DNA of 64,000 nt from Candidatus Omnitrophota bacterium (GCA_016935525.1 JAFGQU010000012.1:1248-65247), one strand, 5' to 3'; positions 14,798 to 43,700 are shown, numbered from the stretch's first letter. A program made the numbers and translations. Notes: generated by a model from the letters alone, not told the origin.

Positions 14798-17122
14798 ATG
14801 GATCAAAATCTTCAATTTTCCGCCAATTCTCTGACCGTCCTCAAAAAACGTTACCTTAAAAAAGATGCAAGCGGCGAAGTCTGTGAATCTCCTAAACAGA
14901 TGTTGGAAAGAGTTGCCGGAGCTATCGCCGGAATCGAACGGCGTTACGGAGCTTCCCGTAGCGTAGTACAGGAAGTGGAAGACGCTTTTTTTAATATGAT
15001 GGCAGAACTTAAGTTCATGCCTAATTCTCCTACACTGATGAATGCCGGAAAAGATCTGGGCCAGCTTTCGGCATGTTTTGTCGTTCCGGTCGAAGATTCC
15101 ATGGAATCTATTTTCGATGCGATAAAAGCTACCGCGCTTATTCATAAGACCGGCGGAGGTACGGGATTTAGTTTTTCTCAATTACGTCCTAAACGAAGTA
15201 TGGTCAAATCGACCGGAGGTGTCGCCTCAGGGCCGGTTTCGTTTATGAAAGTGTTTGACGCGGCGACTCAAGCCGTGAAACAGGGCGGGACCCGCCGGGG
15301 AGCGAACATGGGGATATTACGGGTCGATCATCCCGACATCAAAGAGTTCATTACCTGTAAAGAGAAGGAAGGAGATATTTCTAATTTTAATATTTCGGTC
15401 GCAGTCACCGATGAGTTTATGGAAAAGGTAGCCCGTAACGAATCCTATTCATTGGTCGACCCGCGTACGCACGAGGTAGTCGAAGAAATATCGGCTCAGG
15501 AAGTTTTTGATATGATCACTCAAGGCGCCTGGAAAAACGGCGAACCGGGAGTCGTCTTTATCGATAAGATAAATAGCGGGAATCCTACCTCTCATTTAGG
15601 GGCGATCGAGAGTACCAACCCTTGCGGCGAACAGCCTTTGTTACCGTTTGAATCGTGTAATTTAGGTTCGATAAACCTGGCTAAGATGCTGAAGGTCAAC
15701 GCTCAGGGGAAATATGAAGTCGATTGGGAAGAGCTGGGAAGGGTGACTCATCTGGTCACACGGTTTTTAGATAACGTCATCGATGCCAACAAATTCCCTT
15801 TACCCCAGATCAAGGAGAATACCACCCGTACCCGTAAAATAGGGTTAGGGATCATGGGCTGGGCGACGATGCTGGGATTTTTAGAGGTCCCTTACGAAAG
15901 TGAGGATGCCTTGAAACTGGCAAAAGAGTTGATGAATTTTATTCATACCCAGTCTAAAGAAGAGTCTATTTCTCTTGCCCGGGACCGGGGAGTATTTCCG
16001 TCCTGGCGGGGAAGTGTATGGGAAGAACAGGGAATAAAGATAAGGAACGCGACCCTTACGACGATCGCTCCTACCGGTTCGATAAGTATTATCGGAGGCC
16101 CGACGTCTACCGGTATCGAACCATTTTTCTCGCTGGTCTACTACCGTAATATTTTAGACGGAGAGAGGCTGTTGGAGGTCGAACCCAGTTTCGAATATGT
16201 CGCAAAAAAACGCGGTTTCTATTCGGAAGAATTAATGAAAAAAATCGCCTCCGGTGAAAGTATCCAGAAGATGCCGGAAATCCCGGATGATATCAAATTG
16301 ATGTTCAAAACGGCGCTGGAAATATCGCCGCTGATGCATGTGAAGATGCAGGCGGCTTTTCAGGAAGGGACGGATAACGCGGTATCAAAAACGATCAATC
16401 TGCCTAATAGCGCGACATTGAACGATGTAAAAGAGGCTTTGATTTATTCATATAAGCTGGGTTGTAAAGGGATGACGCTTTACCGTGACGGGTCACGCAG
16501 TGTCCAGGTGTTGACGGTAGGCAATGAAAAGAAGACTCAGCAGGAACAGGCTCTCAGTGAAGATTCTTCGCTCCGGATGGCGGTTGTCCATCCCAAACCC
16601 CGGCCGGAAATGATCATGGGGACTACGACTAAGATCACTACCGGGTGCGGTAATCTCTATATCACCGTCAATCAGGATCCTGACGGAGAGTTTTTTGAAG
16701 TGTTCACTCAGATGGGAAAAGCCGGAGGATGCGCGGCATCACAGCTGGAAGCGGTGGGGAGATTGATATCACTGGCGTTGCGCGGCGGAGTGGACCTTAA
16801 AGTCGTGGTCGAACAGTTGAAAGGTATCCGTTGTCCTTCTCCTAACTGGATGAACGGGAAAAAGATATTTTCCTGTGCCGATGCGATCGCGAGAGTCCTG
16901 GAAAAACGGGCCGCCGATCAAAAACAGCTGGTCAATATCAAGGTCTCTCAGGCCGAAGAAGAATTGGCGCTTAAGGTCACATCTGCTGCGCAGACGACCG
17001 TCAAAGTGAAAAAGGTCAGCCGGCTCAAGAATGTGGTAGGAGTATGCCCTGATTGCGGTTCGGCCTTGCGGCATCAGGAAGGCTGCCTGCTCTGTGACGC
17101 CTGCGGGTATAGTAAATGTTAA
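14798..17122 (+). CDS. nrdJ: Adenosylcobalamin-dependent (class II) ribonucleoside-diphosphate/triphosphate reductase with C-terminal Zn-ribbon
   Basis: Class II RNR motifs (NPCGEQPL, FESCNLGSINL, TIAPTGS); C-terminal CPDCG...CLLCDACG zinc ribbon. Confidence 0.9.
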   Translation: MDQNLQFSANSLTVLKKRYLKKDASGEVCESPKQMLERVAGAIAGIERRYGASRSVVQEVEDAFFNMMAELKFMPNSPTLMNAGKDLGQLSACFVVPVEDSMESIFDAIKATALIHKTGGGTGFSFSQLRPKRSMVKSTGGVASGPVSFMKVFDAATQAVKQGGTRRGANMGILRVDHPDIKEFITCKEKEGDISNFNISVAVTDEFMEKVARNESYSLVDPRTHEVVEEISAQEVFDMITQGAWKNGEPGVVFIDKINSGNPTSHLGAIESTNPCGEQPLLPFESCNLGSINLAKMLKVNAQGKYEVDWEELGRVTHLVTRFLDNVIDANKFPLPQIKENTTRTRKIGLGIMGWATMLGFLEVPYESEDALKLAKELMNFIHTQSKEESISLARDRGVFPSWRGSVWEEQGIKIRNATLTTIAPTGSISIIGGPTSTGIEPFFSLVYYRNILDGERLLEVEPSFEYVAKKRGFYSEELMKKIASGESIQKMPEIPDDIKLMFKTALEISPLMHVKMQAAFQEGTDNAVSKTINLPNSATLNDVKEALIYSYKLGCKGMTLYRDGSRSVQVLTVGNEKKTQQEQALSEDSSLRMAVVHPKPRPEMIMGTTTKITTGCGNLYITVNQDPDGEFFEVFTQMGKAGGCAASQLEAVGRLISLALRGGVDLKVVVEQLKGIRCPSPNWMNGKKIFSCADAIARVLEKRAADQKQLVNIKVSQAEEELALKVTSAAQTTVKVKKVSRLKNVVGVCPDCGSALRHQEGCLLCDACGYSKC

Positions 17123-24445: not shown

Positions 24446-24640
24446 CCAGTTTAATGTCACACGACACACCCGTGAGTCTCACGACAACGGGGCAAGCGCG
24501 TCATCCCGTGGAATTCGGAGAATTCCCGGGACTGAATCCCCGAAATTTATCAGTGATAAATTTCAGGGGGCATAGTCACACGTGAATAAAAACTCAAAAT
24601 CAAAAACGAACGACTCACGACGTACGACGAGCGACGGGAA
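24440..24640. repeat. Composite intergenic repeat: GTCACACG-family module plus ACGAC word array
   Basis: gtcacacgacacacccgtgagtctcacgacaacggggcaagcgcg ... catagtcacacgtg ... gaacgactcacgacgtacgacgagcgacgg. Confidence 0.65.
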
Positions 24641-24642
24641 GT

Positions 24643-26088
24643 ATGATTATAAAAAATAACAAAGAAGACTTTCTAAGTTACCTCGAAGATACCTCAAATA
24701 TCGAGGGCCATGCCGAATCGCTGTATATTCCTCACACGCAGGATGAACTTGTCACGCTGGTCGCCAGGTGTAACCAGGAAAAAATACCGCTTACCATTTC
24801 CGCGGGCCGTACCGGGACAACCGGAGGATGTGTCCCCCAAGAAGGGGTGCTGGTGAGTCTTGAAGAGTTTAACCGGATACTGTCTATCGATAAAGAACAT
24901 AAACGGGTATCGGTCCAGGCCGGTGTAGTGCTTGAAGACCTGGAACGGGAATTAAACCGTCACCGGCTTGCCTTAAGGGCGCAACCGACCGAATCGCTTG
25001 CGTGTGTGGGAGGCGCGGTATCCACAGCCGCCTCGGGAGTGCGAGGGTACCGTTGGGGAGGTATACGCAAGTACGTTGAACGGATCAAGATCTTATTCGT
25101 CGACGGCACGGTCTTTGATATCTGTCGCGGCGAGATTTTTGCTCATCAGGGAAAAATAACGGTCCCTTTAGGCGGCCGGACAAAAGAAATACGATTGCCT
25201 TCTTACCGTATGCCGCACACTAAAACTCAGGCCGGATATTTTGTCGCTCCCGACATGGACCTGATCGATCTTTTTATCGGGAGCGAAGGTACGTTGGGGA
25301 TTATTTTAGAAATAGAATTCAGCGTCCAGGAGTTAGCTGAAGAGATATTTGATTGTATCGTGTTTTTTAAAGAAGAGAAAGACGCGTTCCGGTTTGTGGA
25401 AACAATTAAAGAAAAAAAATCTAAAAAGGCTCTTAACCCGACCAGCCTTGAATTCCTCGATGCCCGGTCTTTGAGATTTTTAGGTGAAGAATACCCGCAG
25501 GCCGCCTCTTACGCTGCGGCGGTATATATCGAGCAGGAAGAATCCTCCCCGGTATCTTCGATAGCCGCCTGGATTGAGCTTATCGAATCATCCGGCGCGC
25601 TGCCGAATGAGACCTGGTTCGGCGACAGCATCCTTACCCGGAAAAAGATATTTGAGTTTCGGCATAAACTGCCGCAACGTATCAACGAATTTCTCAAAAC
25701 CCATCGTCAACGTAAGCTCTCGACCGACGTCGCGGTGCCGGAAGAAAGGTTTCTTGAGATGTACGGATTCTATGCAAAAGAAGGCGCTTCCAGCGGTATT
25801 GAATTCGTCAATTTCGGGCATATCGGCGAAAATCATCTCCATTTCAACTTTTTACCGCGTAACGATGACGAATATAGGAAAGCCAAAGAATATACTTCCA
25901 AGTTTATTAAAAAAGCCATAGAATTAGGCGGTACGGTTTCGGCGGAACACGGTATCGGGAAACTGAAAAAAGAGTCTCTCCTTTTGATGTACGGGGAAGA
26001 AGCGGTCGGCCAGATGCGGGTGTTAAAGGGGCAGTTCGATCCCAACTGGATATTGAACCGGGGCAACATCTTTGATTGCAAGGAATAG
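24643..26088 (+). CDS. FAD-binding oxidoreductase, FAD-linked oxidase (GlcD/D-lactate dehydrogenase-like) family
   Basis: PCMH-type FAD-binding domain (ISAGRTGTTGG, GSEGTLGIILEIEF) plus C-terminal oxidase domain. Confidence 0.75.
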   Translation: MIIKNNKEDFLSYLEDTSNIEGHAESLYIPHTQDELVTLVARCNQEKIPLTISAGRTGTTGGCVPQEGVLVSLEEFNRILSIDKEHKRVSVQAGVVLEDLERELNRHRLALRAQPTESLACVGGAVSTAASGVRGYRWGGIRKYVERIKILFVDGTVFDICRGEIFAHQGKITVPLGGRTKEIRLPSYRMPHTKTQAGYFVAPDMDLIDLFIGSEGTLGIILEIEFSVQELAEEIFDCIVFFKEEKDAFRFVETIKEKKSKKALNPTSLEFLDARSLRFLGEEYPQAASYAAAVYIEQEESSPVSSIAAWIELIESSGALPNETWFGDSILTRKKIFEFRHKLPQRINEFLKTHRQRKLSTDVAVPEERFLEMYGFYAKEGASSGIEFVNFGHIGENHLHFNFLPRNDDEYRKAKEYTSKFIKKAIELGGTVSAEHGIGKLKKESLLLMYGEEAVGQMRVLKGQFDPNWILNRGNIFDCKE

Positions 26089-26165
26089 TTTCTGGTCTCT
26101 AGTTTCTAGTCTCTGGTGTCTGGCCTTTTTACTGGTGACTAAAGACCAGCGACTAGCGACTAAAT
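26089..26165. repeat. CTAGTC/CTGGTC word-repeat hairpin
   Basis: tttctggtctctagtttctagtctctggtgtctgg ... aaagaccagcgactagcgactaaat. Confidence 0.7.
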
Positions 26166-26240
26166 AGGGGCTTGGAAATTTCTGCGGATATGATAATATA
26201 TACTTTAAAAGGCAAGCCATAAAAAAGAGGAGGTGTTGCT

Positions 26241-26567
26241 ATGGCTAAAAGTTCAATAGGATTAGAGGAAAATGTAGCATCATTGTTGTGTTACCTTTTA
26301 GGATGGATTTCCGGTTTAATATTTCTGTTATTAGAACGGGACAACAAAACTGTCAAATTTCATGCTATCCAATCGTTGGTAACGTTTCTCGGGTTACATG
26401 TCATTTCGATCATCCTGGCGTTTATCCCGTTTCTGGGATGGGCGGTAGCTTCGTTGATCTCGATCTTGGCGATCGTACTATGGATCTTTATGATGGTAAA
26501 AGCTTATCAGGGAGAAAAGATCAAGTTGCCGATTGCCGGCGAGATAGCCGAGAAACATTCCGCTTAA
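26241..26567 (+). CDS. DUF4870-type small membrane protein
   Basis: LLCYLLGWISGLIFLLLERDNKTVKFHAIQSL matches the DUF4870 signature; 3 TM helices. Confidence 0.6.
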   Translation: MAKSSIGLEENVASLLCYLLGWISGLIFLLLERDNKTVKFHAIQSLVTFLGLHVISIILAFIPFLGWAVASLISILAIVLWIFMMVKAYQGEKIKLPIAGEIAEKHSA

Positions 26568-26579
26568 TATATCGTATAG

Positions 26580-26975
26580 ATGAAACGGCATTTAACGGTT
26601 GTTGCCGCCTGTATCACCGACGGTGAGCAGGTGCTTATTTGTCAACGCAAGGAAGATGATGCGTTCGGATTGCTCTGGGAATTTCCCGGCGGGAAAGTAG
26701 AGGACGGAGAAGATTTAGCAAGCGCGATCATCCGGGAGATCGAAGAAGAGCTGGGAGTCACGGTAAGCGTGGGCAGAGAACTCGGTATCTTTGAGGATGA
26801 AAACGAGACTCTCAAGATCACCGTACACCTTCTGGAAAACAAGATCATCCTCGGTACACCCCAGACCCGTGACTGTAACGCTATCCGGTGGGTCGGGATA
26901 GGCAAGCTTGATTCGTTTGACCTCGCGCCGGTAGACAGAAAGATAACGAGATTTTTACAGGGGAACACAAGATGA
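26580..26975 (+). CDS. mutT: NUDIX hydrolase (MutT-like 8-oxo-dGTP diphosphatase)
   Basis: Nudix box GGKVEDGEDLASAIIREIEEELGV. Confidence 0.8.
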   Translation: MKRHLTVVAACITDGEQVLICQRKEDDAFGLLWEFPGGKVEDGEDLASAIIREIEEELGVTVSVGRELGIFEDENETLKITVHLLENKIILGTPQTRDCNAIRWVGIGKLDSFDLAPVDRKITRFLQGNTR

Positions 26976-27541
26976 ACGAAAGTACACGGTTAAAGAAGGC
27001 TGCAGTGATGAAAGCGGAGCTTCTGGCGTTACTCAAGAAAGACGCCTATTTTAAAAAGGAAATAACGTTATCTTCCGGAAAGAAGAGTAACTTTTATATC
27101 GATGTGCGCCGGGTGAGCCTTTCCAGTTACGGGCTATACCTGCTTTCCCATTGTCTCTGGGATATGATCAAAGATGAAGATATTGCCGCGATCGGCGGCC
27201 CGACATTAGGGGCGGACCCGATTGTCGGCGGCCTTTGTATGGTCGCCGCCGATGAACAACGCGCTCTTGGCGGGTTCCTTATCCGTAAAACCCCAAAAAA
27301 ACACGGCCAACAACAGCTTATTGAAGGAAAAGAACTCCCCGCCGGTACCCGGGTGGTCCTGCTCGATGATGTCGCGACCAGCGGCGGATCGTTTATCAAC
27401 GCGTTGGCAGTGATGAAAGAGAATAACATCGATGTTGTGAGATGCCTCTGTGTAGTCGACCGGCAGGAAGGGGCGTGTGAGGAGATAGAGAAAGCCGGTT
27501 CTTCACTGACGGCGTTGTTTGTAAAAAAAGACTTTCTTTAA
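26972..27541 (+). CDS. pyrE: Orotate phosphoribosyltransferase
   Basis: PRPP-binding motif VVLLDDVATSGGS; length and N-terminal hood region typical of PyrE. Confidence 0.8.
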   Translation: MNESTRLKKAAVMKAELLALLKKDAYFKKEITLSSGKKSNFYIDVRRVSLSSYGLYLLSHCLWDMIKDEDIAAIGGPTLGADPIVGGLCMVAADEQRALGGFLIRKTPKKHGQQQLIEGKELPAGTRVVLLDDVATSGGSFINALAVMKENNIDVVRCLCVVDRQEGACEEIEKAGSSLTALFVKKDFL

Positions 27542-27705
27542 TGTGCTGCACGGGAAATACGCTCAACTTCGTTTTCGCGAAATATACTTCGCTTCGCTTC
27601 GTGAAATAAATTGAAATACATGGAAAAAATGAGGTATTTCGTGAACGGAGTGAACATATTTCACGAGCGTCAGCGAATATATGTCGTCCCGTCAGGGACA
27701 TATTT
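27541..27705. repeat. GAAATAC/GTATTTC word-repeat module (family F)
   Basis: gaaatacgctcaacttcg...gaaataaattgaaatacatgg...gtatttcgtg...catatttcacgag...gggacatatttcatatg; a second copy lies at 54880-55010. Confidence 0.65.
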
Positions 27706-27708
27706 CAT

Positions 27709-28488
27709 ATGTTAATTGTTCTACTTCTCTCTATTTTTCTTTCCGCTTGTGTCTCTACCGAATATAACGTCACGACTCATCGCGAAGATATCATGTTTTA
27801 TTCTGCCGACCGGGAAGTCGCGATGGGCCAAAGCGTTGCCAAACAGGTTGCTCAATATTACAAAATATCGCAAAACCCTTTTTATGTGGGCCGGGTAAAA
27901 GAGATGGGGGCGAAAATAGCCGAAGTCTGCGATCGTCAAGAGATCTCCTATTATTTTTATGTACTGGAACGTAAAGAAGACGATACCGATACCGAACCGT
28001 TGATCAACGCGTTCGCGTTACCCGGCGGGTATGTCTACATTTTTAAAGACCTTATGGACCTTCTGGATACCGAGGATGAACTCGCTTTCATTTTAGCGCA
28101 TGAAGTCGGGCATGTCGTTGCCCGGCACAGCATTAAAAAACTTCAGGCGATCATGGGATATAACCTGGTCGCGGCCGCGGCGACTCAAGTGAAGACCGGG
28201 CCGGGATTTCAGGAAGGATTGTCGTTGGCGATGTTACAGATCTTATCGGCATATTCGCAGGAAGATGAGTTCGATGCCGATGAACTTGCCGTTCAATACC
28301 TTACCCGGTTAGGATATGACCCTCTTTCGGGGATCGCGGTGATGGAAAAATTGTATGAAGCGAACAAAAAACAGCCGCGCCGGCCGCTGATGTATTTTCG
28401 TACCCACCCTTATGCCGCTCAACGTATCGGAAATATCAAAAAACAGTTGGGGATGCCGCTGGATATTTCCGATTATATGAACAAATAA
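27709..28488 (+). CDS. M48 family zinc metallopeptidase (lipoprotein)
   Basis: Lipobox LSACVS; HEVGHVVARH zinc-binding HExxH motif with downstream E. Confidence 0.75.
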   Translation: MLIVLLLSIFLSACVSTEYNVTTHREDIMFYSADREVAMGQSVAKQVAQYYKISQNPFYVGRVKEMGAKIAEVCDRQEISYYFYVLERKEDDTDTEPLINAFALPGGYVYIFKDLMDLLDTEDELAFILAHEVGHVVARHSIKKLQAIMGYNLVAAAATQVKTGPGFQEGLSLAMLQILSAYSQEDEFDADELAVQYLTRLGYDPLSGIAVMEKLYEANKKQPRRPLMYFRTHPYAAQRIGNIKKQLGMPLDISDYMNK

Positions 28489-28494
28489 TAGGCT

Positions 28495-29454
28495 TTATAG
28501 TGAGGATGCCTGGTTTAACGCGAACAGGACAATACAGCCCATAAGATTGTGAAGGCTGTGGAAGAAAATACTGTTGACCATGTTATGGGTGCGTTCGTAA
28601 AGAAAACATAACATGAAACTGAGGATAAATAACGGCAATACTACATTGTAAGTACGGTGGATCAACGAAAAGATGAGCGATACCAGGATAGTCGTCGCGA
28701 TAAACGACATACGTTTCCTTAACCAACCGTAAAGGAACCCGCGGAAAAAAAGTTCTTCGACGATAGGCCCGAGAACGACGATCTGAAGTATCAACAGATA
28801 CCGGGCCGGGTCATCTTTAAGCATAAAGTAAAGCGGGATCGCCGGGTTAAGGCCGGATTTAAGATGAAGAGAGCTTGCGATGAAATGGTTTACGAATGCC
28901 GCGGGAAAGATCAGCCATACGGTGATCGCGTAAAGGCCGGCGGCTTTAAACGGGATAAAATGATCTTTTCTTATCCCGAGTTCGGAAAACGGAATATACC
29001 GGGCGAGGATAAAAAATACGGATATCTCTAAGAAGATATTATAGAATATGGTGATCCGCGGCCAGTTGTTGTCGGGCCCGAATACAGCGATACCCAAAAT
29101 AGCGAGAGTCGCTAAAAACGTCGTCGCGGTGATAAGAGTGATGATCTTTAAATTATATTGATGGTCATAATGAAGCGTGGTCGTCCCGGGAGCTTGCGGA
29201 AACACTTTTTGTTTACGTAACGCCTGTATTATCCAGAATGCCGCGATCCCGATCCCGCCGGTAAACAGGATGAAATAGACAAAAAATACCAGCCGGAAAT
29301 ACGGCGCGTCCATAAAATTCTCCGATATGTCCGGGAGGGTAGGTATATCTTCCTGAGGCATTCCGGCGATATGATGAGTGGCCATCTGTACGGCAAACGC
29401 GCCCAACACGAAAATGATCGACAGGAAAATGAAAAGTTTGATTTTTTTAGTCAT
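28495..29454 (-). CDS. CPBP family intramembrane metalloprotease (CAAX protease-like)
   Basis: EELFFRGFLYGWL (EExxxR) and downstream FxxxH motifs, 7-8 TM helices; start taken at internal ATG 29454 (MTKKIKLF); the long ORF extends to 29559. Confidence 0.7.
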   Translation of the reverse strand: MTKKIKLFIFLSIIFVLGAFAVQMATHHIAGMPQEDIPTLPDISENFMDAPYFRLVFFVYFILFTGGIGIAAFWIIQALRKQKVFPQAPGTTTLHYDHQYNLKIITLITATTFLATLAILGIAVFGPDNNWPRITIFYNIFLEISVFFILARYIPFSELGIRKDHFIPFKAAGLYAITVWLIFPAAFVNHFIASSLHLKSGLNPAIPLYFMLKDDPARYLLILQIVVLGPIVEELFFRGFLYGWLRKRMSFIATTILVSLIFSLIHRTYNVVLPLFILSFMLCFLYERTHNMVNSIFFHSLHNLMGCIVLFALNQASSL

Positions 29455-29532
29455 AGTCTTTATAATTTTCTCATAAGACTCTAATGAGATTGTAAGGGGA
29501 AATCGGGTAATACACAAGGGGAAAATTCTAAT

Positions 29533-29575
29533 ATACGGGTCACATAGACACAAGGTCACAGAGTCACACGTGATT
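29533..29575. repeat. GTCACACG-family repeat (gggtcacatagacacaaggtcacagagtcacacgtg)
   Basis: Direct reading; family recurs at ten or more loci. Confidence 0.7.
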
Positions 29576-29789
29576 TAATGTCCGTCTTACGAATATCGGT
29601 TATGAAGCCCGTATCGGTATTCGTCTTTCGGTCACGGTTTTTAAAAAAAGTCGTTGCCGTTAACCGGCCGACGGAACCTGCCCGCCCTCACGAATGTTCG
29701 GGAGCAGGCGGACGGGCATCGTTACCGTTTGCCGAATGACGAATGATCACGTCATGTGTCGTGTGACATGGAGCAGTAAAGGAGAGATC

Positions 29790-30467
29790 ATGAAGAAACT
29801 AGCCGTATTGATGATATTATTATCGATGAGTATCGTCGCCTGCGGCCAGGGCGCCGAAAGAATAAAATTACCCCAGCCGCGATATAAGGGTGAAGCCTCT
29901 TTTGAAGAGGCGTTATATGCCCGTCATTCAGTACGCAGTTACGGATGTAAAGGGTTGATTCTTGATGAGATCTCTCAGTTACTCTGGGCGGCGCAGGGGA
30001 AATCCCAAAGCGGAAAACGTACCGCGCCGAGCGCGCACGCGTCTTATCCTATCGATGTCTATCTTGTGGTAGGGAAAGCCGAAGGGTTAGCCGGCGGGTT
30101 ATACAAATATGATCAGCCCGGCCATCAGCTTATCAAGGTAAAAGACGGCGACTTGCGTCACGAATTCCTGGTTGCCTGCCGCGGACAAGGGCAGGTGTTG
30201 ACTGCTCCGGTATCTATTGTATTGGTATGTCCTGAACGTAAAGATGAGATGAAATTCGTGTATATGGAAGCCGGACATATTGCCGAGAACGTGTATTTAC
30301 AGTCAACGGCGCTTAACCTTGGTACGGTTGTTATCGCGGGATTTGATGAAACAAAACTGAACGAGTTTCTGGGGCTTACCGAAGGCTCCCAACCCCTCTA
30401 TGTGATGCCGGTAGGGAGCGAGAGCGGCGGATGTAAAAAATGTCAGGGTGATGAATGTCCGAAATAA
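29790..30467 (+). CDS. SagB/ThcOx-type nitroreductase-family protein with signal peptide and Cys-rich C-terminal tail (GGCKKCQGDECPK)
   Basis: Signal peptide MKKLAVLMILLSMSIVACG; nitroreductase-fold motifs (ARHSVRSY, LLWAAQG, AGHIAENVYLQSTALNLG); long ORF starts at 29694. Confidence 0.65.
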   Translation: MKKLAVLMILLSMSIVACGQGAERIKLPQPRYKGEASFEEALYARHSVRSYGCKGLILDEISQLLWAAQGKSQSGKRTAPSAHASYPIDVYLVVGKAEGLAGGLYKYDQPGHQLIKVKDGDLRHEFLVACRGQGQVLTAPVSIVLVCPERKDEMKFVYMEAGHIAENVYLQSTALNLGTVVIAGFDETKLNEFLGLTEGSQPLYVMPVGSESGGCKKCQGDECPK

Positions 30468-31159
30468 TATTTACCTCAAGCGGCGGGAAAGACAGTATGT
30501 TCGCGTTATATACTCTGCAACAGTCCGGGATGTATCATATCGACAGGTTATTGACTACTATAACCGAAGGGTATGACCGGATCAGTATGCATGGGGTAAG
30601 ACGGCAACTGATTCATCAACAGGCCCGATCGCTCAGGATCCCTCTTGATATCGTTGAAATACCGAAAGACTCCTCGAATGAGGAGTATGAACAGCGGATG
30701 GGAAAGACGTTACTGCGCTATAAAGAACGTGGTATCGGCTCGGTCGCCTTCGGTGATCTGTTTTTAGAAGATGTGCGCGCGTACCGGATAAAGAACCTTT
30801 CAAAAGTATCTATGGACGCGATATTCCCGTTATGGGGCCAGGCTACGTCTTTACTCTCTCGCGCGTTCATCAATGCCGGGTTTAAAGCGATAGTGACCTG
30901 TGTTGATTCACACGTATTAGACCGGTCGTTTGTCGGGTGCGACTATGACGGCAAGTTTCTTGATGAGCTGCCGGATAGAGTAGACCCTTGCGGAGAAAAC
31001 GGGGAATTCCATTCGTTTGTCTATGACGGGCCGAATTTTTCTTATCCGGTAAGATTCGAAAAAGGCCGGATCCTATTAAAAAATAACCGGTTCTGGTATT
31101 GTGATCTGATCGAGACGGGTCGTGTAATGAAAAAAGAAGGAGTGGAAGAAGATGGATAA
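30455..31159 (+). CDS. PP-loop superfamily ATP pyrophosphatase (MJ0570 / diphthine-ammonia-ligase-like, COG2102)
   Basis: N-terminal SGGKDS PP-loop motif; overlaps upstream gene stop. Confidence 0.6.
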   Translation: MSEIIFTSSGGKDSMFALYTLQQSGMYHIDRLLTTITEGYDRISMHGVRRQLIHQQARSLRIPLDIVEIPKDSSNEEYEQRMGKTLLRYKERGIGSVAFGDLFLEDVRAYRIKNLSKVSMDAIFPLWGQATSLLSRAFINAGFKAIVTCVDSHVLDRSFVGCDYDGKFLDELPDRVDPCGENGEFHSFVYDGPNFSYPVRFEKGRILLKNNRFWYCDLIETGRVMKKEGVEEDG

Positions 31160-31886
31160 AAAAAATGTAATATTCTTAAGTATTGTCCTGATACTCTTTT
31201 CTGCCGGATGTGTCAAAGGGCCCGATGAAGCGGGAGAAAAGTTCAAGGTAATTGCTGAAGGATGTTTTAAAGATATGATGTCTTCTCAGATAGAACCCTG
31301 GAATTTAAAAGATCATTCCGAAGAGGAAATAGCAAAAGATAAAGAACGAATACAGGCGATTGTGAAAAAAACTCAGGAAAAATTGAGGCAGTTGGTGAAA
31401 GAGTATCCGCGCAGCCGTTGGGCCGACGATTCCCAGTCTTTACTCGCGTTTCTGTTATTAGAAACCCCGCCGCAACGTATGGAAGCGTTAAAATATTTAA
31501 TTGAAACGTATCCGCACGGTAGGTTCGAGGCGTGGACTGAAGAAAAATTCGGCCCTCTTTTGATCCGGGTAGAAGGTTTTCCTATGGAAGCGTCCGCGCG
31601 GATCGATCTTGTGGCAACGTATCTTATGGCCGGAGATATCGATAAAGCGGAAGAGACGCGATTAGCGCTGATAAAAAAGTATCCGAAACTAAAAGATCAG
31701 TTCTCTCAATCTCTGTTACCGCCGGATATAAATACGCAGGCGGGTGGTTGTTCGAATTGCGTGAACTGTCAGGGACAATCAGGAACAGTACCGGAGAATG
31801 AACCGGGGCAGCCGGCGGCATCTAAATCCTGCGGGAGTTGTCAGGAGAAGGCTAAGATGAGGGAAGCAACCGGGATAAAAGAGTAG
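31152..31886 (+). CDS. Lipoprotein with helical (TPR-like) body and Cys-rich C-terminal tail (GGCSNCVNCQGQSG...CGSCQEK)
   Basis: Lipobox LFSAGC; C-terminal tail resembles the tail of the upstream nitroreductase-family protein. Confidence 0.5.
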   Translation: MDKKNVIFLSIVLILFSAGCVKGPDEAGEKFKVIAEGCFKDMMSSQIEPWNLKDHSEEEIAKDKERIQAIVKKTQEKLRQLVKEYPRSRWADDSQSLLAFLLLETPPQRMEALKYLIETYPHGRFEAWTEEKFGPLLIRVEGFPMEASARIDLVATYLMAGDIDKAEETRLALIKKYPKLKDQFSQSLLPPDINTQAGGCSNCVNCQGQSGTVPENEPGQPAASKSCGSCQEKAKMREATGIKE

Positions 31887-31990
31887 GGTCACACGACACA
31901 TCCCGCACCGATATTTACATATCTAGCGGGACCCCGCTGTATAAAAATATTACGGAGCGGGGCGTCACATAGTCACACGTAATTGCGTTT
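31885..31990. repeat. GTCACACG-family repeats flanking a TAGCGGGACCCCG hairpin
   Basis: gggtcacacgacacatcccgcac ... ctagcgggaccccgctgtataaaaatattacggagcggggcgtcacatagtcacacgt; the TAGCGGGACCCCG word also occurs at 8315-8330. Confidence 0.65.
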
Positions 31991-31995
31991 ACCCG

Positions 31996-32538
31996 TTGAG
32001 GGGAAGAAATAGAGTATATATGGAGATGGAAAGGGTACTGGAGACGCCGAAAAAGATCAATCAAGAGTTTCTCGTCGAACATCCCCGGTTTGTAACCCAA
32101 AAACTGGTAGTCCGGCCGGCCGAAATATTTCGCGGCCCGCGGTTAGTGTTAAACGGAGAAGTACAACCGGAAATAGAGGGGAAATTTACCGTCACCGACG
32201 ATATCGGGAAAGAAACCGTGGTACGGTTGCTTTATAATATCGTCGATCCGGTCCCTATTATCGAGATCGACGGTGATCAGATATCGCTGGTCAAACCATT
32301 CCTGTGGTATCAACGGGTATGGGTCGGGTTACCGTTATTATTGATCTTTGTCGGTAAACTGTTCGGCGCGTTGTTAGGTATCGTTGCCGTACTCGTGAAC
32401 ATCCGCGTGTTTCGTAGCGATAAACCGCTGATCATCAGGTACCTGCGTATCGCTTGGGTCAATATCATGATGGCGCTGGTGTATTTCGTCCTCGCCTCGA
32501 GTTTTATGATGTTTATCAATTTGCTGAGACTGAAGTGA
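31996..32538 (+). CDS. Hypothetical membrane protein (N-terminal soluble domain, two C-terminal TM helices)
   Basis: ORF with good coding periodicity; no recognisable domain. Confidence 0.4.
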   Translation: MRGRNRVYMEMERVLETPKKINQEFLVEHPRFVTQKLVVRPAEIFRGPRLVLNGEVQPEIEGKFTVTDDIGKETVVRLLYNIVDPVPIIEIDGDQISLVKPFLWYQRVWVGLPLLLIFVGKLFGALLGIVAVLVNIRVFRSDKPLIIRYLRIAWVNIMMALVYFVLASSFMMFINLLRLK

Positions 32539-32654
32539 ATCACGTCACACGACACACGTCACATAGTCACACGTCGAAAAATTCCAATATACAATAAACA
32601 AATTACAAAATAGGGTCTACTATTTAGGAGATGTGTTGACAAAATGAAGAGATT

Positions 32655-32892
32655 CCAACCACAGAGGACACCGAGGGCACGGAGTAAAAATGAGAGGTTT
32701 CAATGAGAAGATATTTGGTTTCTTCCCATCGATGTTCGATGGGGGTCTCTTTGCAAAAACGGGAGAAAACCGGCAAAATATTTTCCGGTTTTCTTCGTTT
32801 TTACAAAGAAATACGCTTTTATGGAATAAAAGCACGAAACCAAATATCTTCATCTCTTCTCTGTGGAACTCTGTGAGCTCTGTGGTTAAATC
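32655..32892. mobile_element. MITE-like element copy 1 (TIR ttCCAACCACAGAGG ... CTCTGTGGTTaaat; cargo unrelated to copies 2 and 3)
   Basis: Shares ~30-bp termini with the elements at 35851-36089 and 37287-37526; interior full of hairpins; no ORF of significance. Confidence 0.6.
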
Positions 32893-32927
32893 TTCCCGGA
32901 TGGTTAATCCCTAGTAAATTAGTAAAG

Positions 32928-33070
32928 ATTTACGTCACACGTTGCCCTTCGGGCTCGCGAAGATGAGCACAGATTGAGAAGACCACAGATGATTGCAGAT
33001 ATCCTCGTATCCCCCCACCCTGCACCCGATACCCTGTACCCGGCACCCGAGATAGTAGAAACTGGACAGG
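32928..33070. repeat. Composite repeat: GTCACACG words + conserved 80-bp module + inverted GGGTGCAGGGTATCGGGTGCCG family
   Basis: 32932-33015 is ~90% identical to 48160-48237 (gcccttcgggctcgcgaagatgagcacagattgagaagaccacagatgattgcagatatcctcgtatcccc). Confidence 0.75.
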
Positions 33071-33298
33071 GAAAAGTGGAAAGGGGACAGGGGATTTGGG
33101 TTGAAAGATAGAGAAAATGGGGGTATTATAAAAAATAAGTGAGGTATCTAGTATAGACTATATAGAATTTATATCTATGAGGTTCACCTTTATAGACATA
33201 GGTATAAAAAGTTGACAAATCCCCTCTAAATATGGTATATTTAAATTGGTCAGTTTAATTGACTGGTCTTTTAAATAGACTACAAATAGGAGATAAAA

Positions 33299-33577
33299 AT
33301 GGCACACCTAACTATTACTACAACCAGTAACGCGAAAGCAAAATTTATTTCTATGGTACGGAAGGTTCATGATTTAGGACAGGCTTACATGATCACCCAT
33401 AGGGGAGAAGATTCTGCTGTATTGTTAAGCCATGAAGATTATGAAGGCCTTTTAGAGACAATTGATATTTTAAAAAATAATAAGATTATTGCGGAAATCA
33501 TGCAATCTTTGAAAGATCTCGAAGAGGGGGTCATCCATTCCTTTGAGGAAGTTGTTGGCAGACAACAGAAAAAATGA
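33299..33577 (+). CDS. Type II antitoxin, Phd/YefM family
   Basis: YefM-like N-terminal motif (AKAKFISMVRKVHDLGQAYMITHRGEDSAVLLSHEDYEGLLET); 4-nt overlap with toxin gene. Confidence 0.8.
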   Translation: MAHLTITTTSNAKAKFISMVRKVHDLGQAYMITHRGEDSAVLLSHEDYEGLLETIDILKNNKIIAEIMQSLKDLEEGVIHSFEEVVGRQQKK

Positions 33578-33864
33578 ACCGACAGAACGTTTATAGCATT
33601 TCTTTTACCCGCACTTCTAAAAAACAATTTAATTTTCTCCCCGGCAAAATAAAGAAAGAAATTGCTAAAATCTTAGAAGAAGAGTTAGCGTATAATCCTC
33701 TTTTAGGAAAGCCGCTGCAAGGGCCATTGAAGGGATTGCGTTCTCAAAGAGTCGGAGTGCTGAGGATCATATATAAGATAGTGCAAGACGAATTGGTTAT
33801 AATAGTGATCAGTCTTGAGCATAGGAAAAGTGTATATCGTAGCCACAAATTGAAGAAGAAATAA
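33574..33864 (+). CDS. Type II toxin, RelE/ParE family
   Basis: 96 aa; RelE-fold motifs (YSISFTRTSKKQF, LRSQRVGVLRIIYKI); ATGA overlap with upstream antitoxin. Confidence 0.75.
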   Translation: MNRQNVYSISFTRTSKKQFNFLPGKIKKEIAKILEEELAYNPLLGKPLQGPLKGLRSQRVGVLRIIYKIVQDELVIIVISLEHRKSVYRSHKLKKK

Positions 33865-33971: not shown

Positions 33972-34688
33972 ATGGGAAATGATATTGTGAAAATCATAAT
34001 ATATTCTTTATTTTCCGGGATTACCATATTTCTCGGAGGATTACTGGCATTGCTATTTGAAAAAATGCCAAGATGGAATATGAGAGAGTACATAGTACAT
34101 ACTTCAATCGCTTTTGGCGGAGGAGTGTTGGTTGCCGCGGTTGCGTTTGTCCTTACCCCGCGTGGTATCGAACTGTTTGCGGTACAGAAATTCACGTTGA
34201 TATTTCTTGCCGGCTCGGTCACGTTTTTTCTTATCGACCGGGGTCTCGAACGAAAAGGCGGTGCCGTCGCTCAGGTATTGGCGATGATGATGGATTTCGT
34301 ACCGGAAGCGATCGCGTTAGGTGCGGTATTTGCGCACGATCATCGGACCGGATTACTGTTAGCGTTGTTTATCGGGTTACAGAATTTGCCGGAATCGTTT
34401 AACGCCTATTCAGACCTGCGAAGCAGCGGGTTCGGCCCGGTACGGATATTGTCGGCCTTTGTCCCGTTAAGTCTTACCGGTATCGCCGGCGCGTTGTTAG
34501 GGAACCGTTTCCTCATCGATAGGCCTCAACTTATTGCTGGGTTGATGTTGTTTTCTGCCGGGGGGATATTGTATCTTATCTTCCAGGATATCGCGCCGTT
34601 ATCGAAAGTGAGACGGCGCTGGGGTCCGGCTTTGGGGGCGACGATAGGATTTGTTATCGGGATGATCGGGACAAAAATGTTGGGATAA
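33972..34688 (+). CDS. ZIP family metal (Zn/Fe) transporter
   Basis: Eight-TM ZIP topology, conserved HD..H and GLQNLPE motifs (FAHDHRTG, GLQNLPESF). Confidence 0.75.
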   Translation: MGNDIVKIIIYSLFSGITIFLGGLLALLFEKMPRWNMREYIVHTSIAFGGGVLVAAVAFVLTPRGIELFAVQKFTLIFLAGSVTFFLIDRGLERKGGAVAQVLAMMMDFVPEAIALGAVFAHDHRTGLLLALFIGLQNLPESFNAYSDLRSSGFGPVRILSAFVPLSLTGIAGALLGNRFLIDRPQLIAGLMLFSAGGILYLIFQDIAPLSKVRRRWGPALGATIGFVIGMIGTKMLG

Positions 34689-39999: not shown

Positions 40000-40135
40000 C
40001 GTCACATAGACACATAGTCACAAGGTCACACGTGTCTAAAAAAACAGAATATCAATTTGTCTGGATTCTTTCGTGTGACGTGTGTCGTGCTTGCCCCGTT
40101 GCGTAAACTCAAGGGGTGACTGTGTGACTTGGAAG
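40000..40135. repeat. GTCACACG-family composite repeat (includes gcttgccccgttgcg, the inverse of cgcaacggggcaagc at 48141-48155)
   Basis: gtcacgtcacatagacacatagtcacaaggtcacacgtg ... gtgtgacgtgtgtcgtgcttgccccgttgcg ... ggggtgactgtgtgac. Confidence 0.7.
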
Positions 40136-41589: not shown

Positions 41590-41684
41590 TGCACGTCACA
41601 TGTCACACGACACACGTCATACGTAGGAGCGTGGAGAAATGCGGGTTTGCTATTAGGAAAATTATATAATATAATTGTTTAAAT

Positions 41685-43521: not shown

Positions 43522-43700
43522 AGACGTAACGCGGAATGCGACACGCGTAACGCGTGAGGGGAATACCGAATGTACACTTCCGAAGTGTACAAAGGGGGTA
43601 GCGGTGAGCGGTTAGGAATAGTCGATAGTGTATAGTTTTCCCCCCTCCACCCGATACCCTATCATTATTCGCCACACGACACATAGTCTCACGTTAAAAA
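43522..43700. repeat. Composite repeat: ACGTAACGCGG words, GTACAC palindrome, CCACCCGATACCCT words, GTCACACG words
   Basis: acgtaacgcggaatgcgacacgcgtaacgcgtgagg ... gtacacttccgaagtgtac ... cccctccacccgataccctatcattattcgccacacgacacatagtctcacg. Confidence 0.65.

What the first reader, a model, noticed from the sequence alone, without database searches (positions are those of the whole stretch)
29533..32600. A repeat-bracketed three-gene module: exported SagB-type nitroreductase, PP-loop ATPase and Cys-tailed lipoprotein, with a shared GGC-x2-C..C-QG C-terminal tail (candidate undescribed system)
The three translationally coupled genes (29790-30467, 30455-31159, 31152-31886) are bounded on both sides by GTCACACG-family repeats (29533-29575; 31885-31990; 32541-32580). 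The first is a SagB/ThcOx-type nitroreductase-fold protein with an unusual secretion signal peptide. The second is a COG2102/MJ0570-type PP-loop ATP pyrophosphatase (SGGKDS), a family that carries out amidation/adenylation on diphthamide but has unknown function in bacteria. The third is a lipoprotein. Both exported proteins end in similar Cys-rich tails: ...ESGGCKKCQGDECPK and ...QAGGCSNCVNCQGQSG...SCGSCQEKAKM. SagB-type dehydrogenases normally partner with YcaO cyclodehydratases in thiazole/oxazole peptide maturation. Here no YcaO is present and an adenylating PP-loop enzyme takes the adjacent position. This suggests a different ATP-dependent modification chemistry acting on, or anchored by, Cys-rich C-terminal tails (metal binding, a sorting tag, or a substrate motif). 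A membrane protein of unknown function follows at 31996-32538.
Basis: inference. Interest (0 to 1): 0.7.

Follow-up and report, generated by a model that had tools for sequence, protein, structure and literature searches.

The report
Omnitrophota envelope operon with Cys-tailed proteins
A small three-gene operon in an uncultured Omnitrophota bacterium joins two exported proteins that share an odd cysteine-rich tail with a cytoplasmic enzyme whose relatives sit in vitamin B12 uptake operons; it is not a new peptide-modification system, and only the tails remain unexplained.

Summary
The sequence observations hold. Three overlapping genes encode a SagB-like nitroreductase-fold protein with a signal peptide, a DUF71/COG2102 PP-loop ATPase, and a TPR lipoprotein. 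Both exported proteins end in Cys-rich tails that share GGCxxC…CQG, found nowhere else in the window.

The proposed mechanism is not supported:
- The signal or membrane anchor is shared by nearly the whole SagB-like subfamily, which has FMN-bound crystal structures (BT_0217, BF3017).
- Gene 1 and its tail-bearing orthologues have deleted the Lys-Tyr segment that is catalytic in azoline oxidases.
- The PP-loop protein has no signal peptide and carries the ENGEFH signature of the bacterial "DUF71-B12" branch.
- Among 80 metagenomic relatives of the PP-loop gene, none of the 55 with enough upstream flank has a SagB-like neighbour. 18 follow TonB-dependent receptors, and 10 of 20 loci scanned carry a cobalamin riboswitch upstream.
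- The gene 1–gene 2 adjacency recurs only in a narrow clade (87% and 67% identity relatives).
- The GTCACA repeats are dispersed intergenic elements of this genome, not module borders.

Best reading: a lineage-restricted operon of two envelope proteins with thiol- or metal-binding tails plus a cobamide-salvage-type cytoplasmic enzyme. A unified cobamide-capture role is possible but weakly supported.

The parts
28495..29454 (-). Divergently transcribed CPBP/Rce1-like intramembrane glutamic protease (319 aa from the ATG at 29454; motifs EExxxR, FxxxH and HxxxN intact). Its position next to gene 1 is conserved in L006 and L008.
   Evidence: PF02517 1.9e-19; sub-threshold hits to MrtJ/MrtS/MroQ; gene call in L001; N-terminus conserved upstream of gene 1 in L006/L008
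29455..29533 (-). Single-copy conserved non-coding segment. On the minus strand it reads TTGTGT-17 nt-TACAAT about 35 nt upstream of the CPBP start, so it is probably the CPBP promoter or leader (inference).
   Evidence: Conserved in L006/L007/L008; unique in the window; not flagged by the consensus scan because the -35 hexamer matches only 3 of 6
29539..29570 (+). Block of four period-8 repeats (GTCACATA GACACAAG GTCACAGA GTCACACG). An inverted copy lies at 29754-29767, 23 nt before the gene 1 start.
29790..30467 (+). Gene 1: exported SagB-like FMN nitroreductase-fold protein, 225 aa. Signal peptide with lipobox-like IVAC (Cys18). FMN motif RHSVRSY and EAGH are retained. The KYGERG (Lys-Tyr) segment is deleted between residues 153 and 154.
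   Evidence: pLDDT 90.8; 8CQS/3HOI are the top structural matches
30417..30464 (+). Gene 1 C-terminal extension SESGGCKKCQGDECPK (Cys215, Cys218, Cys223). It is absent from 117 of the 120 listed homologues and predicted to be disordered.
30455..31159 (+). Gene 2: cytoplasmic DUF71/COG2102 PP-loop ATP pyrophosphatase, 234 aa. SGGKDS at 30479-30496 and ENGEFH at 30995-31012. It has no signal peptide.
31152..31886 (+). Gene 3: lipoprotein (LFSAGC lipobox) with an all-helical TPR body resembling BamD, YbgF and LpoP. It belongs to a small family of ~190-aa secreted proteins or lipoproteins.
31710..31883 (+). Gene 3 C-terminal extension of 58 aa, with GGCSNCVNCQG (Cys200, 203, 206) and SCGSC (Cys227, 230). 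None of the 27 aligned relatives has a comparable extension; it is predicted mostly disordered.
31888..31979 (+). Intergenic repeat element: GTCACACGACACA starts 2 nt after the gene 3 stop, then two GC-rich hairpins, then GTCACATAGTCACACG.
   Evidence: fold z -2.4
31996..32538 (+). Gene 4: membrane protein with no family match (a more likely start is the ATG at 32020). The repeat element separates it from gene 3, and there is no evidence that it belongs to the unit.
32544..32573 (+). Repeat block (GTCACACGACACACGTCACATAGTCACACG) starting 6 nt after the gene 4 stop.

Best explanation
This is a lineage-restricted operon in an Omnitrophota genome, not a peptide-modification system.

Gene 1 is an extracytoplasmic, membrane-tethered FMN nitroreductase-fold protein. 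It belongs to a very large family of N-terminally anchored or secreted SagB-like proteins of unknown physiological role. In this clade it has lost the Lys-Tyr catalytic segment of azoline oxidases and gained a three-Cys tail.

Gene 3 is a small periplasmic TPR scaffold lipoprotein that has gained a five-Cys tail with the same GGCxxC...CQG core.

The most likely mechanism (inferred, not shown) is that the two exported proteins work together in the envelope. The TPR protein would act as a binding partner, and the flexible Cys tails would act as thiol or metal-binding arms, through metal coordination or thiol-disulfide chemistry near the flavin site.

Gene 2 is co-transcribed but acts in the cytoplasm. 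It does what its family does elsewhere: ATP-dependent chemistry on a carboxylate or amide, of the kind predicted for cobamide salvage or remodelling.

The overlapping starts reflect the compact gene packing that is common in this genome. The GTCACA blocks are dispersed intergenic elements of this genome.
For: Shown:
- Family assignments.
- The anchor or signal peptide is shared by most of the 120 listed homologues of gene 1.
- The nearest solved structures are the FMN-bound BT_0217 and BF3017, at TM 0.86-0.87 over the target.
- The K-Y segment is deleted in exactly the three tail-bearing sequences.
- Both tails are additions relative to their own families and are predicted disordered.
- The shared motif is unique to these two proteins in the window.
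- Gene 3 has a TPR fold like BamD and YbgF.
- Gene 2 has no signal peptide, keeps all family invariants and carries ENGEFH.
- Gene 2's family sits in riboswitch-BtuB-like-DUF71-DUF6580 operons.
- No SagB-like neighbour occurs among the 55 PP-loop loci with enough upstream flank.
- The arrangement is kept only in close relatives.
- Gene overlaps are frequent elsewhere in the window, e.g. 2297/2845/3432 and 26580/26972.
- The repeats are dispersed.
Against: - The gene 1-gene 2 overlap is preserved down to 53%/67% identity, and in the sample tail presence coincides perfectly with PP-loop adjacency. That could reflect a functional link rather than inheritance within one clade.
- Partnership between genes 1 and 3, and metal or thiol function of the tails, are inferred only. 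There is no complex model, no metal-site prediction, and conservation of the gene 3 tail could not be tested.
- Most family members have Sec-type or TM signals rather than Tat signals, so it is unexplained how an exported protein would acquire FMN.
- In a rough NJ tree, gene 2 lies outside the riboswitch-linked clade, so its substrate is extrapolated from relatives about 50% identical.
Confidence: 0.5

Rival explanations
1. Unified cobamide (B12) capture and salvage module. The two lipoproteins would bind or reductively process corrinoids at the cell surface or in the periplasm, using a nitroreductase fold as in CblC or BluB, with tail Cys thiolates as cobalt ligands. The DUF71 enzyme would then remodel the imported corrinoid in the cytoplasm.
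For: - Gene 2 carries the DUF71-B12 signature ENGEFH.
- 10 of 20 scanned loci of relatives have a cobalamin riboswitch ahead of a BtuB-like receptor.
- In an archaeal clade, a membrane-anchored homologue of gene 1 (P0005, 49% identity) is followed after an 8-nt gap by a true CobS, at 145 bits against a cutoff of 110.
- The organism encodes the B12-dependent reductase NrdJ at 14798-17122.
- Nitroreductase-fold proteins act in B12 chemistry (BluB, CblC), and Cys-Co ligation is known in BtuM (own knowledge, not tested here).
Against: - There is no cobalamin riboswitch in the window or in any SagB-like locus, even at a permissive threshold.
- No B12 transporter or other cob/cbi gene lies near the operon.
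- Gene 2 falls outside the riboswitch/TBDT clade in the tree.
- Four other independent SagB-like contexts show nothing related to B12.
- The CobS adjacency comes from a single clade.
Confidence: 0.17
2. One reading: a new ATP-dependent modification system in which the PP-loop enzyme replaces YcaO and, together with the SagB-type flavoprotein, modifies the Cys-rich tails.
For: - The tails resemble Gly/Cys-rich azole-peptide cores; GGCSNC resembles my recollection of the microcin B17 core (own knowledge, not checked here).
- Tail presence and PP-loop adjacency coincide in all three tail-bearing lineages.
- Dph6-family enzymes can act on a protein-bound carboxylate (PMC3541065).
- Gene 1 passes the TIGR03605 SagB domain model.
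Against: - The catalytic Lys-Tyr segment is deleted in exactly these proteins.
- The enzymes are in different compartments: gene 2 is cytoplasmic, genes 1 and 3 are exported.
- Gene 2 is an unremarkable member of a very large family (8000 scored hits, ~60% identity) with all invariants kept, and none of 55 relatives is next to a SagB-like gene.
- No YcaO, leader peptide or separate precursor was seen. The only upstream small ORF (29578-29739) is not conserved in L006.
Confidence: 0.05
3. The tails are C-terminal processing or sorting signals recognised by the adjacent, syntenic CPBP (Rce1-like) protease, perhaps with the neighbouring M48 peptidase. This would be analogous to CAAX processing or to the Mrt-type CTERM sorting systems.
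For: - The divergent CPBP-gene 1 arrangement is conserved in L006 and L008.
- The CPBP protein gives its best, sub-threshold, hits to the sorting proteases MrtJ and MrtS.
- An M48 peptidase lies next to it.
- All three gene 1 orthologues end in C-x-K.
Against: - The tails lack the transmembrane helix and basic cluster that define known CTERM sorting signals.
- Cys is at position -3, so there is no CAAX box.
- The gene 3 tail ends differently.
- All CPBP hits are far below the family cutoffs (47.6 vs 75; 39.5 vs 130).
- The M48 protein is a LoiP/BepA-like lipoprotein, not a Ste24-type enzyme.
Confidence: 0.07
4. The tails have no specific function. They would be lineage-specific C-terminal extensions that arose by stop-codon loss into the spacer or ribosome-binding region and were kept by drift. 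The operon would be a chance juxtaposition.
For: - The gene 1 tail overlaps the RBS and start region of gene 2.
- The tails are predicted to be disordered.
- The exact GGCxxCQG motif is not kept in the 53% identity orthologue.
Against: - The three Cys of the gene 1 tail keep similar spacing at 53% identity.
- Two unrelated proteins share a motif that occurs nowhere else in 18.5k residues.
- The gene 3 tail is 58 aa with five Cys, too long and too Cys-rich for a neutral read-through.
Confidence: 0.1

Closest known systems
BT_0217 / BF3017-type FMN nitroreductases of Bacteroides (PDB 8CQS, 3HOI) and the wider exported 'SagB/ThcOx family dehydrogenase' group
   Same: The nitroreductase fold and the (I/V)KLPxP start of the mature domain are the same, and the RxSxR and RTAPSA FMN motifs are kept. 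Identity is 35-37% and TM 0.86-0.87 over the target. More than 1400 homologues were found, most with an N-terminal signal, lipobox or TM anchor.
   Different: Gene 1 adds a three-Cys tail and lacks the KYGERG segment that most exported family members keep. The Bacteroides proteins also lack K-Y and have DAGI in place of EAGH. No physiological function is established for any of them.
Azoline oxidases of azole-peptide and NRPS pathways (McbC, ThcOx, BmdC; TIGR03605 SagB domain)
   Same: Same branch of the superfamily. TIGR03605 is passed at 98.3 bits; the family profile matches ThcOx at 3e-22 and McbC at 1.7e-13.
   Different: The catalytic Lys-Tyr is deleted. There is no YcaO or cyclodehydratase partner and no precursor peptide. 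The protein is exported rather than cytoplasmic. It is only 20-21% identical to ThcOx and McbC.
DUF71/COG2102 bacterial branch ('DUF71-B12', de Crecy-Lagard et al. 2012, PMC3541065), as distinct from true diphthine-ammonia ligase Dph6
   Same: SGGKDS PP-loop and the ENGEFH signature in place of Dph6's EGGE/DxE. The profile matches PF0828 (3RJZ) at 8e-25. Relatives 49-54% identical lie in cobalamin-riboswitch/BtuB-like operons.
   Different: No B12 gene or riboswitch is adjacent here. Gene 2 sits in a sister clade with varied neighbours. It scores below the Dph6 and PAB0415 equivalog cutoffs. The family's biochemistry has not been demonstrated.
Periplasmic TPR lipoproteins (BamD/YfiO, YbgF/CpoB, LpoP)
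   Different: The HMM scores are far below the BamD cutoffs (19.7 vs 81.4). The protein is only ~190 aa before the tail, and it carries a unique 58-aa Cys-rich extension. It is not BamD.
CPBP-dependent C-terminal sorting signals (MYXO-CTERM, JDVT-CTERM, Synerg-CTERM) and eukaryotic CAAX processing (Rce1 plus Ste24)
   Same: A Gly/Cys-containing C-terminal motif on exported proteins, next to a CPBP protease and an M48 peptidase.
   Different: There is no TM helix or basic tail after the motif, and no CAAX spacing. All protease HMM hits are sub-threshold.
Dispersed intergenic repeats such as REP/BIME elements and MITE-like elements
   Same: Short, multi-copy and intergenic. They are often placed just after stop codons, sometimes as inverted pairs flanking hairpins, and they break assemblies.
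   Different: They have a period-8 tandem octamer structure (GTCACAnn). Relatives carry different octamers at the same position. No family was assigned.

Membership tests
Azoline oxidase (TOMM/cyanobactin SagB-type dehydrogenase) | Match to the SagB domain model TIGR03605 above its cutoff | tested here: met
   98.3 bits against a cutoff of 78.4
Azoline oxidase (TOMM/cyanobactin SagB-type dehydrogenase) | Conserved catalytic Lys-Tyr pair (McbC K201/Y202) | tested here: not met
   ThcOx WKYHD aligns to family positions 167-168 (KYGERG). Gene 1, P0002 and P0003 have an 8-11 residue deletion there; gene 1 reads CPERKDEMKFV, with no Tyr. The role of the motif comes from PMC6395948.
Azoline oxidase (TOMM/cyanobactin SagB-type dehydrogenase) | Genomic partnership with a YcaO cyclodehydratase and a precursor peptide | tested here: not met
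   The neighbours within ±5 kb that were annotated include no YcaO; two small flanking genes rely on the precomputed Pfam labels of L001, and gene 4 matches no family. The upstream small ORF is not conserved. The rest of the window was not scanned for YcaO.
Azoline oxidase (TOMM/cyanobactin SagB-type dehydrogenase) | Cytoplasmic enzyme acting in a synthetase complex | tested here: not met
   The signal peptide with a lipobox-like Cys is conserved in the orthologues and across the family.
FMN-dependent nitroreductase superfamily | Nitroreductase alpha+beta fold with FMN-phosphate-binding RxSxR | tested here: met
   PF00881 2e-23. The AF2 model has pLDDT 90.8 and its top Foldseek hits are FMN-bound nitroreductases. 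RHSVRSY is present. FMN binding itself was not tested.
Diphthine-ammonia ligase Dph6 | EGGE/DxE motif and a score above the Dph6 equivalog cutoff; organism makes diphthamide | tested here: not met
   ENGEFH replaces the motif. TIGR03679 scores 87.4 against a cutoff of 197.3. Bacteria lack diphthamide (PMC3541065).
DUF71-B12 branch of COG2102 | PP-loop SGGKDS plus the ENGEF/YH signature | tested here: met
   Both are present and invariant in alignment A1.
DUF71-B12 branch of COG2102 | Clustering with B12 transport or salvage genes, or a cobalamin riboswitch | tested here: not met
   Not met at this locus: there is no riboswitch and no btu or cob neighbour. It is met for other family members, where 10 riboswitch-linked loci were found. 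Gene 2 is in a different clade in the NJ tree.
BamD/YfiO | Score above the TIGR03302/PF13525 cutoffs | tested here: not met
   19.7 against 81.4, and 23 against 25. Only a generic TPR fold similarity is seen.
Bacterial lipoprotein | Signal peptide ending in a lipobox with an invariant Cys | tested here: met
   Gene 3: LFSAGC, with LFFTGC in the L096 orthologue. Gene 1: IVAC, NVAC and NIAC with the Cys conserved, although position -3 is atypical. No dedicated predictor was available.
CTERM sorting signals handled by CPBP/Mrt proteases | Signature motif followed by a TM helix and a basic cluster at the C-terminus | tested here: not met
   The tails end ...CQGDECPK and ...KMREATGIKE, with no hydrophobic segment.

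The most novel reading that the evidence does not exclude
The GGCxxC...CQG tails mark a previously undescribed functional tag shared by envelope proteins of a small Omnitrophota clade. One version is a cobalt/corrinoid-binding or other metal-binding arm that couples an exported flavoprotein and a TPR lipoprotein to a cytoplasmic DUF71 enzyme, forming a new kind of cobamide acquisition route. This would also give the first functional handle on the very large family of exported SagB-like nitroreductases.
Probability: 0.15. Interest if true: 0.65.

Novelty: new variant of a known kind. Interest (0 to 1): 0.3.

Why it matters
The proposed new ATP-dependent tail-modification system is very unlikely, so the finding should not be pursued on that basis. 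Three smaller points remain of interest.

1. Exported or membrane-anchored SagB-like flavoproteins form a very large family across CPR bacteria, archaea, Chloroflexota and others. It has crystal structures but no known role. This clade shows that the family can lose its Lys-Tyr catalytic segment and gain a Cys-rich tail.
2. My own metagenome sample reproduces the 2012 prediction that bacterial DUF71 PP-loop enzymes belong to B12 uptake operons. It adds an uncharacterised membrane partner, DUF6580.
3. Two unrelated envelope proteins share a Cys tail, which suggests a lineage-specific metal or thiol function that could be tested biochemically.

Tried and rejected
- **Mis-called start for gene 1:** rejected. 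The RBS, the orthologues and the whole family support the signal peptide.
- **Repeats as module borders or mobile-element ends:** rejected. The same blocks follow unrelated genes across the window, and the module's base composition matches its surroundings.
- **Structured RNA or riboswitch in the 335-nt leader or the other intergenic regions:** no Rfam match, even at E<=1.
- **Conserved non-coding segment upstream of gene 1 as a regulatory RNA:** more simply explained as the promoter or leader of the divergent CPBP gene. This rests only on my reading of the hexamers, because the consensus scan did not flag it.
- **Gene 3 as an orphan:** the word-indexed search found only the gene itself. Exhaustive HMMER then found 41 distant relatives, all aligning to the body only.
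- **Tails against Pfam at E<=1:** nothing meaningful.
- **Single-protein genome-contig scan:** only 4 loci, all Bacteroidota, none informative on synteny.
- **Literature on 8CQS/BT_0217:** only a strain list in a drug-metabolism paper, with no function given. B. thetaiotaomicron B12 lipoprotein papers report no nitroreductase fold. No paper mentions DUF6580.
- **B12 link for the SagB-like family in general:** seen in one archaeal clade (CobS) but not in four other contexts. I therefore kept it as a rival explanation, not as the main one.

Full report
**What is in the sequence**

The window comes from a Candidatus Omnitrophica (Omnitrophota) metagenome-assembled genome. Three + strand ORFs lie at 29790-30467, 30455-31159 and 31152-31886 and overlap by 13 and 8 nt.

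Gene 1 matches Pfam Nitroreductase (2e-23) and passes the SagB domain model TIGR03605 (98.3 bits, cutoff 78.4). Gene 2 matches Diphthami_syn_2 (7.5e-31) and carries SGGKDS. Gene 3 gives only weak, sub-threshold BamD/YfiO and TPR hits.

Gene 1 begins MKKLAVLMILLSMSIVAC and gene 3 begins MDKKNVIFLSIVLILFSAGC. Gene 1 ends ...GGCKKCQGDECPK, and gene 3 ends with GGCSNCVNCQG...SCGSC.... In a proxy proteome of 58 ORFs (18,534 residues) from the window, GGC..C and CQG each occur exactly twice, only in these two tails. The per-protein chance of such Cys enrichment is about 1.6e-3 and 1.3e-3. The other Cys-rich C-termini in the window are NrdJ (confirmed) and ORFs with Fe-S-like or zinc-finger-like Cys motifs that I did not annotate. 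So the descriptive part of the finding is correct.

**The repeats**

GTCACACG occurs 13 times in the window against 0.9 expected. The repeats form period-8 blocks (GTCACAnn/GACACAnn). They are not specific to this module.

Blocks start 2-11 nt after the stop codons of unrelated genes at 24456, 40001 and 41595, as well as after gene 3 (31888) and gene 4 (32544). Further copies lie at 43678, 48077-48130 and 32934. Paired blocks enclose GC-rich hairpins, with fold z-scores of -5.0 at 24450-24595 and -2.4 at 31880-31995.

An independent Logan assembly of the same organism (L001) spans exactly from one block to another, window 24543-31926. That is the behaviour expected of multi-copy repeats. The motif is absent from the other 100-odd loci apart from chance singles. 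At the equivalent position, relatives carry different octamers. The module's base composition matches its surroundings. These are therefore dispersed intergenic elements of this genome, locally dense here, and not a frame around a cassette.

**Gene 1**

The search returned 1455 homologues. Most of the 120 listed have an N-terminal signal peptide, lipobox or single TM anchor, followed by a conserved IKLPxPxY start of the mature domain. They come from CPR bacteria, Bathyarchaeia, Nitrososphaerota, Dehalococcoidia and others. So the 'unusual' secretion signal is the family norm, and the start is not mis-called. NCBI's own model truncates it (P0001, 213 aa).

The closest solved structures are the FMN-bound nitroreductases BT_0217 (8CQS) and BF3017 (3HOI). 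The azoline oxidases ThcOx, BmdC and McbC are more distant. The AlphaFold model is confident (pLDDT 90.8) except for the tail, where pLDDT falls to 62 and then 53.

The Cys tail occurs only in the three closest sequences: the window protein, P0002 (84% identity, GGCKKCQGAECPK) and P0003 (53%, KCGCKGGACKK).

The most telling observation concerns the catalytic Lys-Tyr of azoline oxidases. In McbC this is K201/Y202 (PMC6395948). It corresponds to the family's conserved KYGERG segment, because ThcOx WKYHD aligns there. Most exported family members keep this segment. Gene 1, P0002 and P0003 have an 8-11 residue deletion that removes it; gene 1 reads CPERKDEMKFV, without a Tyr. Gene 1 is therefore in the SagB-like branch by HMM, but it fails the catalytic-motif, partner and compartment tests for an azoline oxidase.

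**Gene 2**

This is a typical member of a very large bacterial family: 8000 scored hits, about 60% identity, called TIGR00290 by JGI. It keeps every invariant residue of an alignment of 26 members, including CGENGEFH.

De Crecy-Lagard et al. (PMC3541065) split DUF71/COG2102 into true Dph6 enzymes (EGGE/DxE) and a bacterial 'DUF71-B12' branch (ENGEF/YH). In their data, 75 of 102 members of the bacterial branch neighbour B12 transporters.

I tested this independently on 80 metagenomic loci. Among immediate neighbours, 18 of 55 upstream genes are TonB-dependent receptors and 11 of 61 downstream genes are DUF6580 membrane proteins. I scanned 20 of these loci for RNA families, and 10 have a cobalamin riboswitch (55-90 bits, gathering score 31.5) upstream on the same strand, ahead of the large ORF that precedes the PP-loop gene. 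Two of these receptors were checked, and both score best against the vitamin B12 receptor model, although below its equivalog cutoff.

So the family is not of 'unknown function in bacteria'; it has a well-supported link to cobamide uptake. There are caveats. In a rough NJ tree, gene 2 and its SagB-linked orthologues fall in a sister clade whose neighbours are varied: MFS, CCG/FAD oxidase, DUF3795, flavodoxin-like, and a Ste24-type M48. This window has no riboswitch, even at a permissive threshold.

**Gene 3**

The word-indexed search found only the gene itself. Exhaustive HMMER then found 41 distant relatives (~30% identity among the closest). Most are 185-195 aa and have signal peptides or lipoboxes, and they align only to residues ~4-186. 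None of the 27 aligned relatives has an extension comparable to the 58-aa Cys-rich tail.

**Is it a conserved module?**

Within a narrow clade, yes.
- L096 (PP-loop protein 87% identical) has the end of a gene 1 orthologue with the tail (...GGCKKCQGAECPK*), then the PP-loop gene, then a lipoprotein N-terminus homologous to gene 3.
- L006/L007 (53%/67% identity) keep gene 1 with a Cys tail, the same 13-nt overlap with the PP-loop gene, and the divergent CPBP gene upstream. The contig ends before any gene 3 equivalent.

Beyond that clade, no.
- None of the 80 metagenomic PP-loop loci has a SagB-like neighbour at E<1e-5; 55 of them have at least 700 nt upstream and 61 at least 700 nt downstream. 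The one exception is a weak generic nitroreductase on the opposite strand in L091.
- Another Omnitrophota genome places its PP-loop gene between an MFS transporter and a GIY-YIG gene.
- Five SagB-like contexts from other clades have no DUF71 neighbour.

Overlapping starts are common throughout this compact window, so they are weak evidence for functional coupling.

**How it most likely works**

Shown: the family memberships, the export signals, the loss of K-Y, the tails as lineage-specific additions, and the narrow distribution of the adjacency.

Inferred: genes 1 and 3 act together in the envelope as a tethered flavoprotein and a TPR partner. Their flexible Cys tails would serve as metal-binding or thiol-redox arms. 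Gene 2 acts separately in the cytoplasm on a cobamide-type substrate. I put this at about 0.5.

The main rival, at about 0.17, is that all three genes serve cobamide acquisition. The support for it:
- the DUF71-B12 signature in gene 2;
- a true CobS (145 bits, cutoff 110) 8 nt downstream of an archaeal gene 1 homologue in three samples;
- NrdJ in the window, 13 kb upstream;
- known B12 chemistry on nitroreductase folds (BluB, CblC; own knowledge).

Against it: no riboswitch or transporter is present here, and four other SagB-like contexts show nothing related to B12 (and above).

A CPBP/M48 tail-processing model gets about 0.07; the tails lack the TM helix and basic cluster of CTERM signals and have no CAAX spacing. 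A 'functionless extension' model gets about 0.1.

**Novelty and verdict**

All three proteins belong to known families. What is particular here is a clade-specific variant: an exported SagB-like protein that has lost its Lys-Tyr segment and gained a Cys tail, next to a TPR lipoprotein with a matching tail. This makes it a new variant of a known kind, of modest interest.

The tails are a real and unexplained feature. Conservation of the gene 3 tail could not be tested, because only 45 residues of its orthologue are available.

Noticed in passing
window 24456-24582, 29539-29570, 29754-29767, 31888-31979, 32544-32573, 32934, 40001-40128, 41595-41614, 43678-43693, 48077-48130: Period-8 GTCACAnn/GACACAnn blocks begin 2-11 nt after stop codons of unrelated genes. 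They often occur as two blocks, or as inverted copies, enclosing stable hairpins. Relatives carry different octamers at the same position: L006 has TTACCAGA/TCACCAAG/TTGCCAGT, and L008 has GATTACAG-type units. Their function is unknown; termination or insulation is possible.
   Followed up: partly
window 29455-29533 (minus strand): This non-coding segment appears more conserved than the flanking genes. It is shared with L006, L007 and L008 and is single-copy in the window. It reads TTGTGT-17-TACAAT about 35 nt upstream of the CPBP start. In L008, a ~130-nt insertion separates it from the start codon.
   Followed up: partly
L063 1360-5424; also L041, L047, L058, L072, L079, L082, L085, L086, L089: A recurrent metagenomic operon has the order cobalamin riboswitch, BtuB-like TonB-dependent receptor, DUF71 PP-loop enzyme, DUF6580 membrane protein. 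No paper in the library mentions DUF6580, which makes it a candidate B12-related inner-membrane component.
   Followed up: partly
L103 4001-5511, L104, L105: A membrane-anchored archaeal SagB-like protein (P0005) is followed after an 8-nt gap by a true cobS (adenosylcobinamide-GDP ribazoletransferase). This hints at a cobamide link for part of the exported SagB-like family.
   Followed up: partly
P0001-P0120 (homologues of window 29790-30467): This is a very large family of extracytoplasmic SagB-like flavoproteins in CPR bacteria, archaea, Chloroflexota and others. It has a conserved IKLPxPxY start and a retained azoline-oxidase-like KYGERG motif. Most members have Sec or TM anchors; at least one (P0092, TRRELLK) has a Tat-like signal. 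How FMN is acquired outside the cell is unclear.
   Followed up: partly
window 27709-29454; L017 2751-3992: An M48 metallopeptidase lipoprotein and a CPBP/Rce1-like protease sit side by side just upstream of the operon. The pairing recalls the eukaryotic CAAX-processing pair Ste24/Rce1. The nearest outgroup PP-loop locus (L017) has a Ste24-type M48 gene immediately upstream. This is probably a coincidence.
   Followed up: no
window 33299-33864: A Phd/YefM antitoxin (3.2e-12) and a ParE toxin (2.2e-07) form an overlapping pair in a lower-GC stretch (0.37-0.39). A ZIP-family metal transporter follows at 33972-34688.
   Followed up: partly
window 32580-33298: About 700 nt contain no convincing ORF but several inverted repeats (for example 32707-32722/32836-32851 at 100%, and 32756-32802), along with promoter-like and terminator-like sites. 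No Rfam match was found.
   Followed up: no
window 14798-17122: A class II, adenosylcobalamin-dependent ribonucleotide reductase NrdJ (1156 bits, cutoff 961), so the organism requires a cobamide.
   Followed up: yes
window 29790-29825: The NCBI protein for gene 1 (P0001, 213 aa) starts at an internal Met (MSIVAC...) and so loses the signal peptide. The JGI and Logan calls, and the orthologues, support the 225-aa form.
   Followed up: yes
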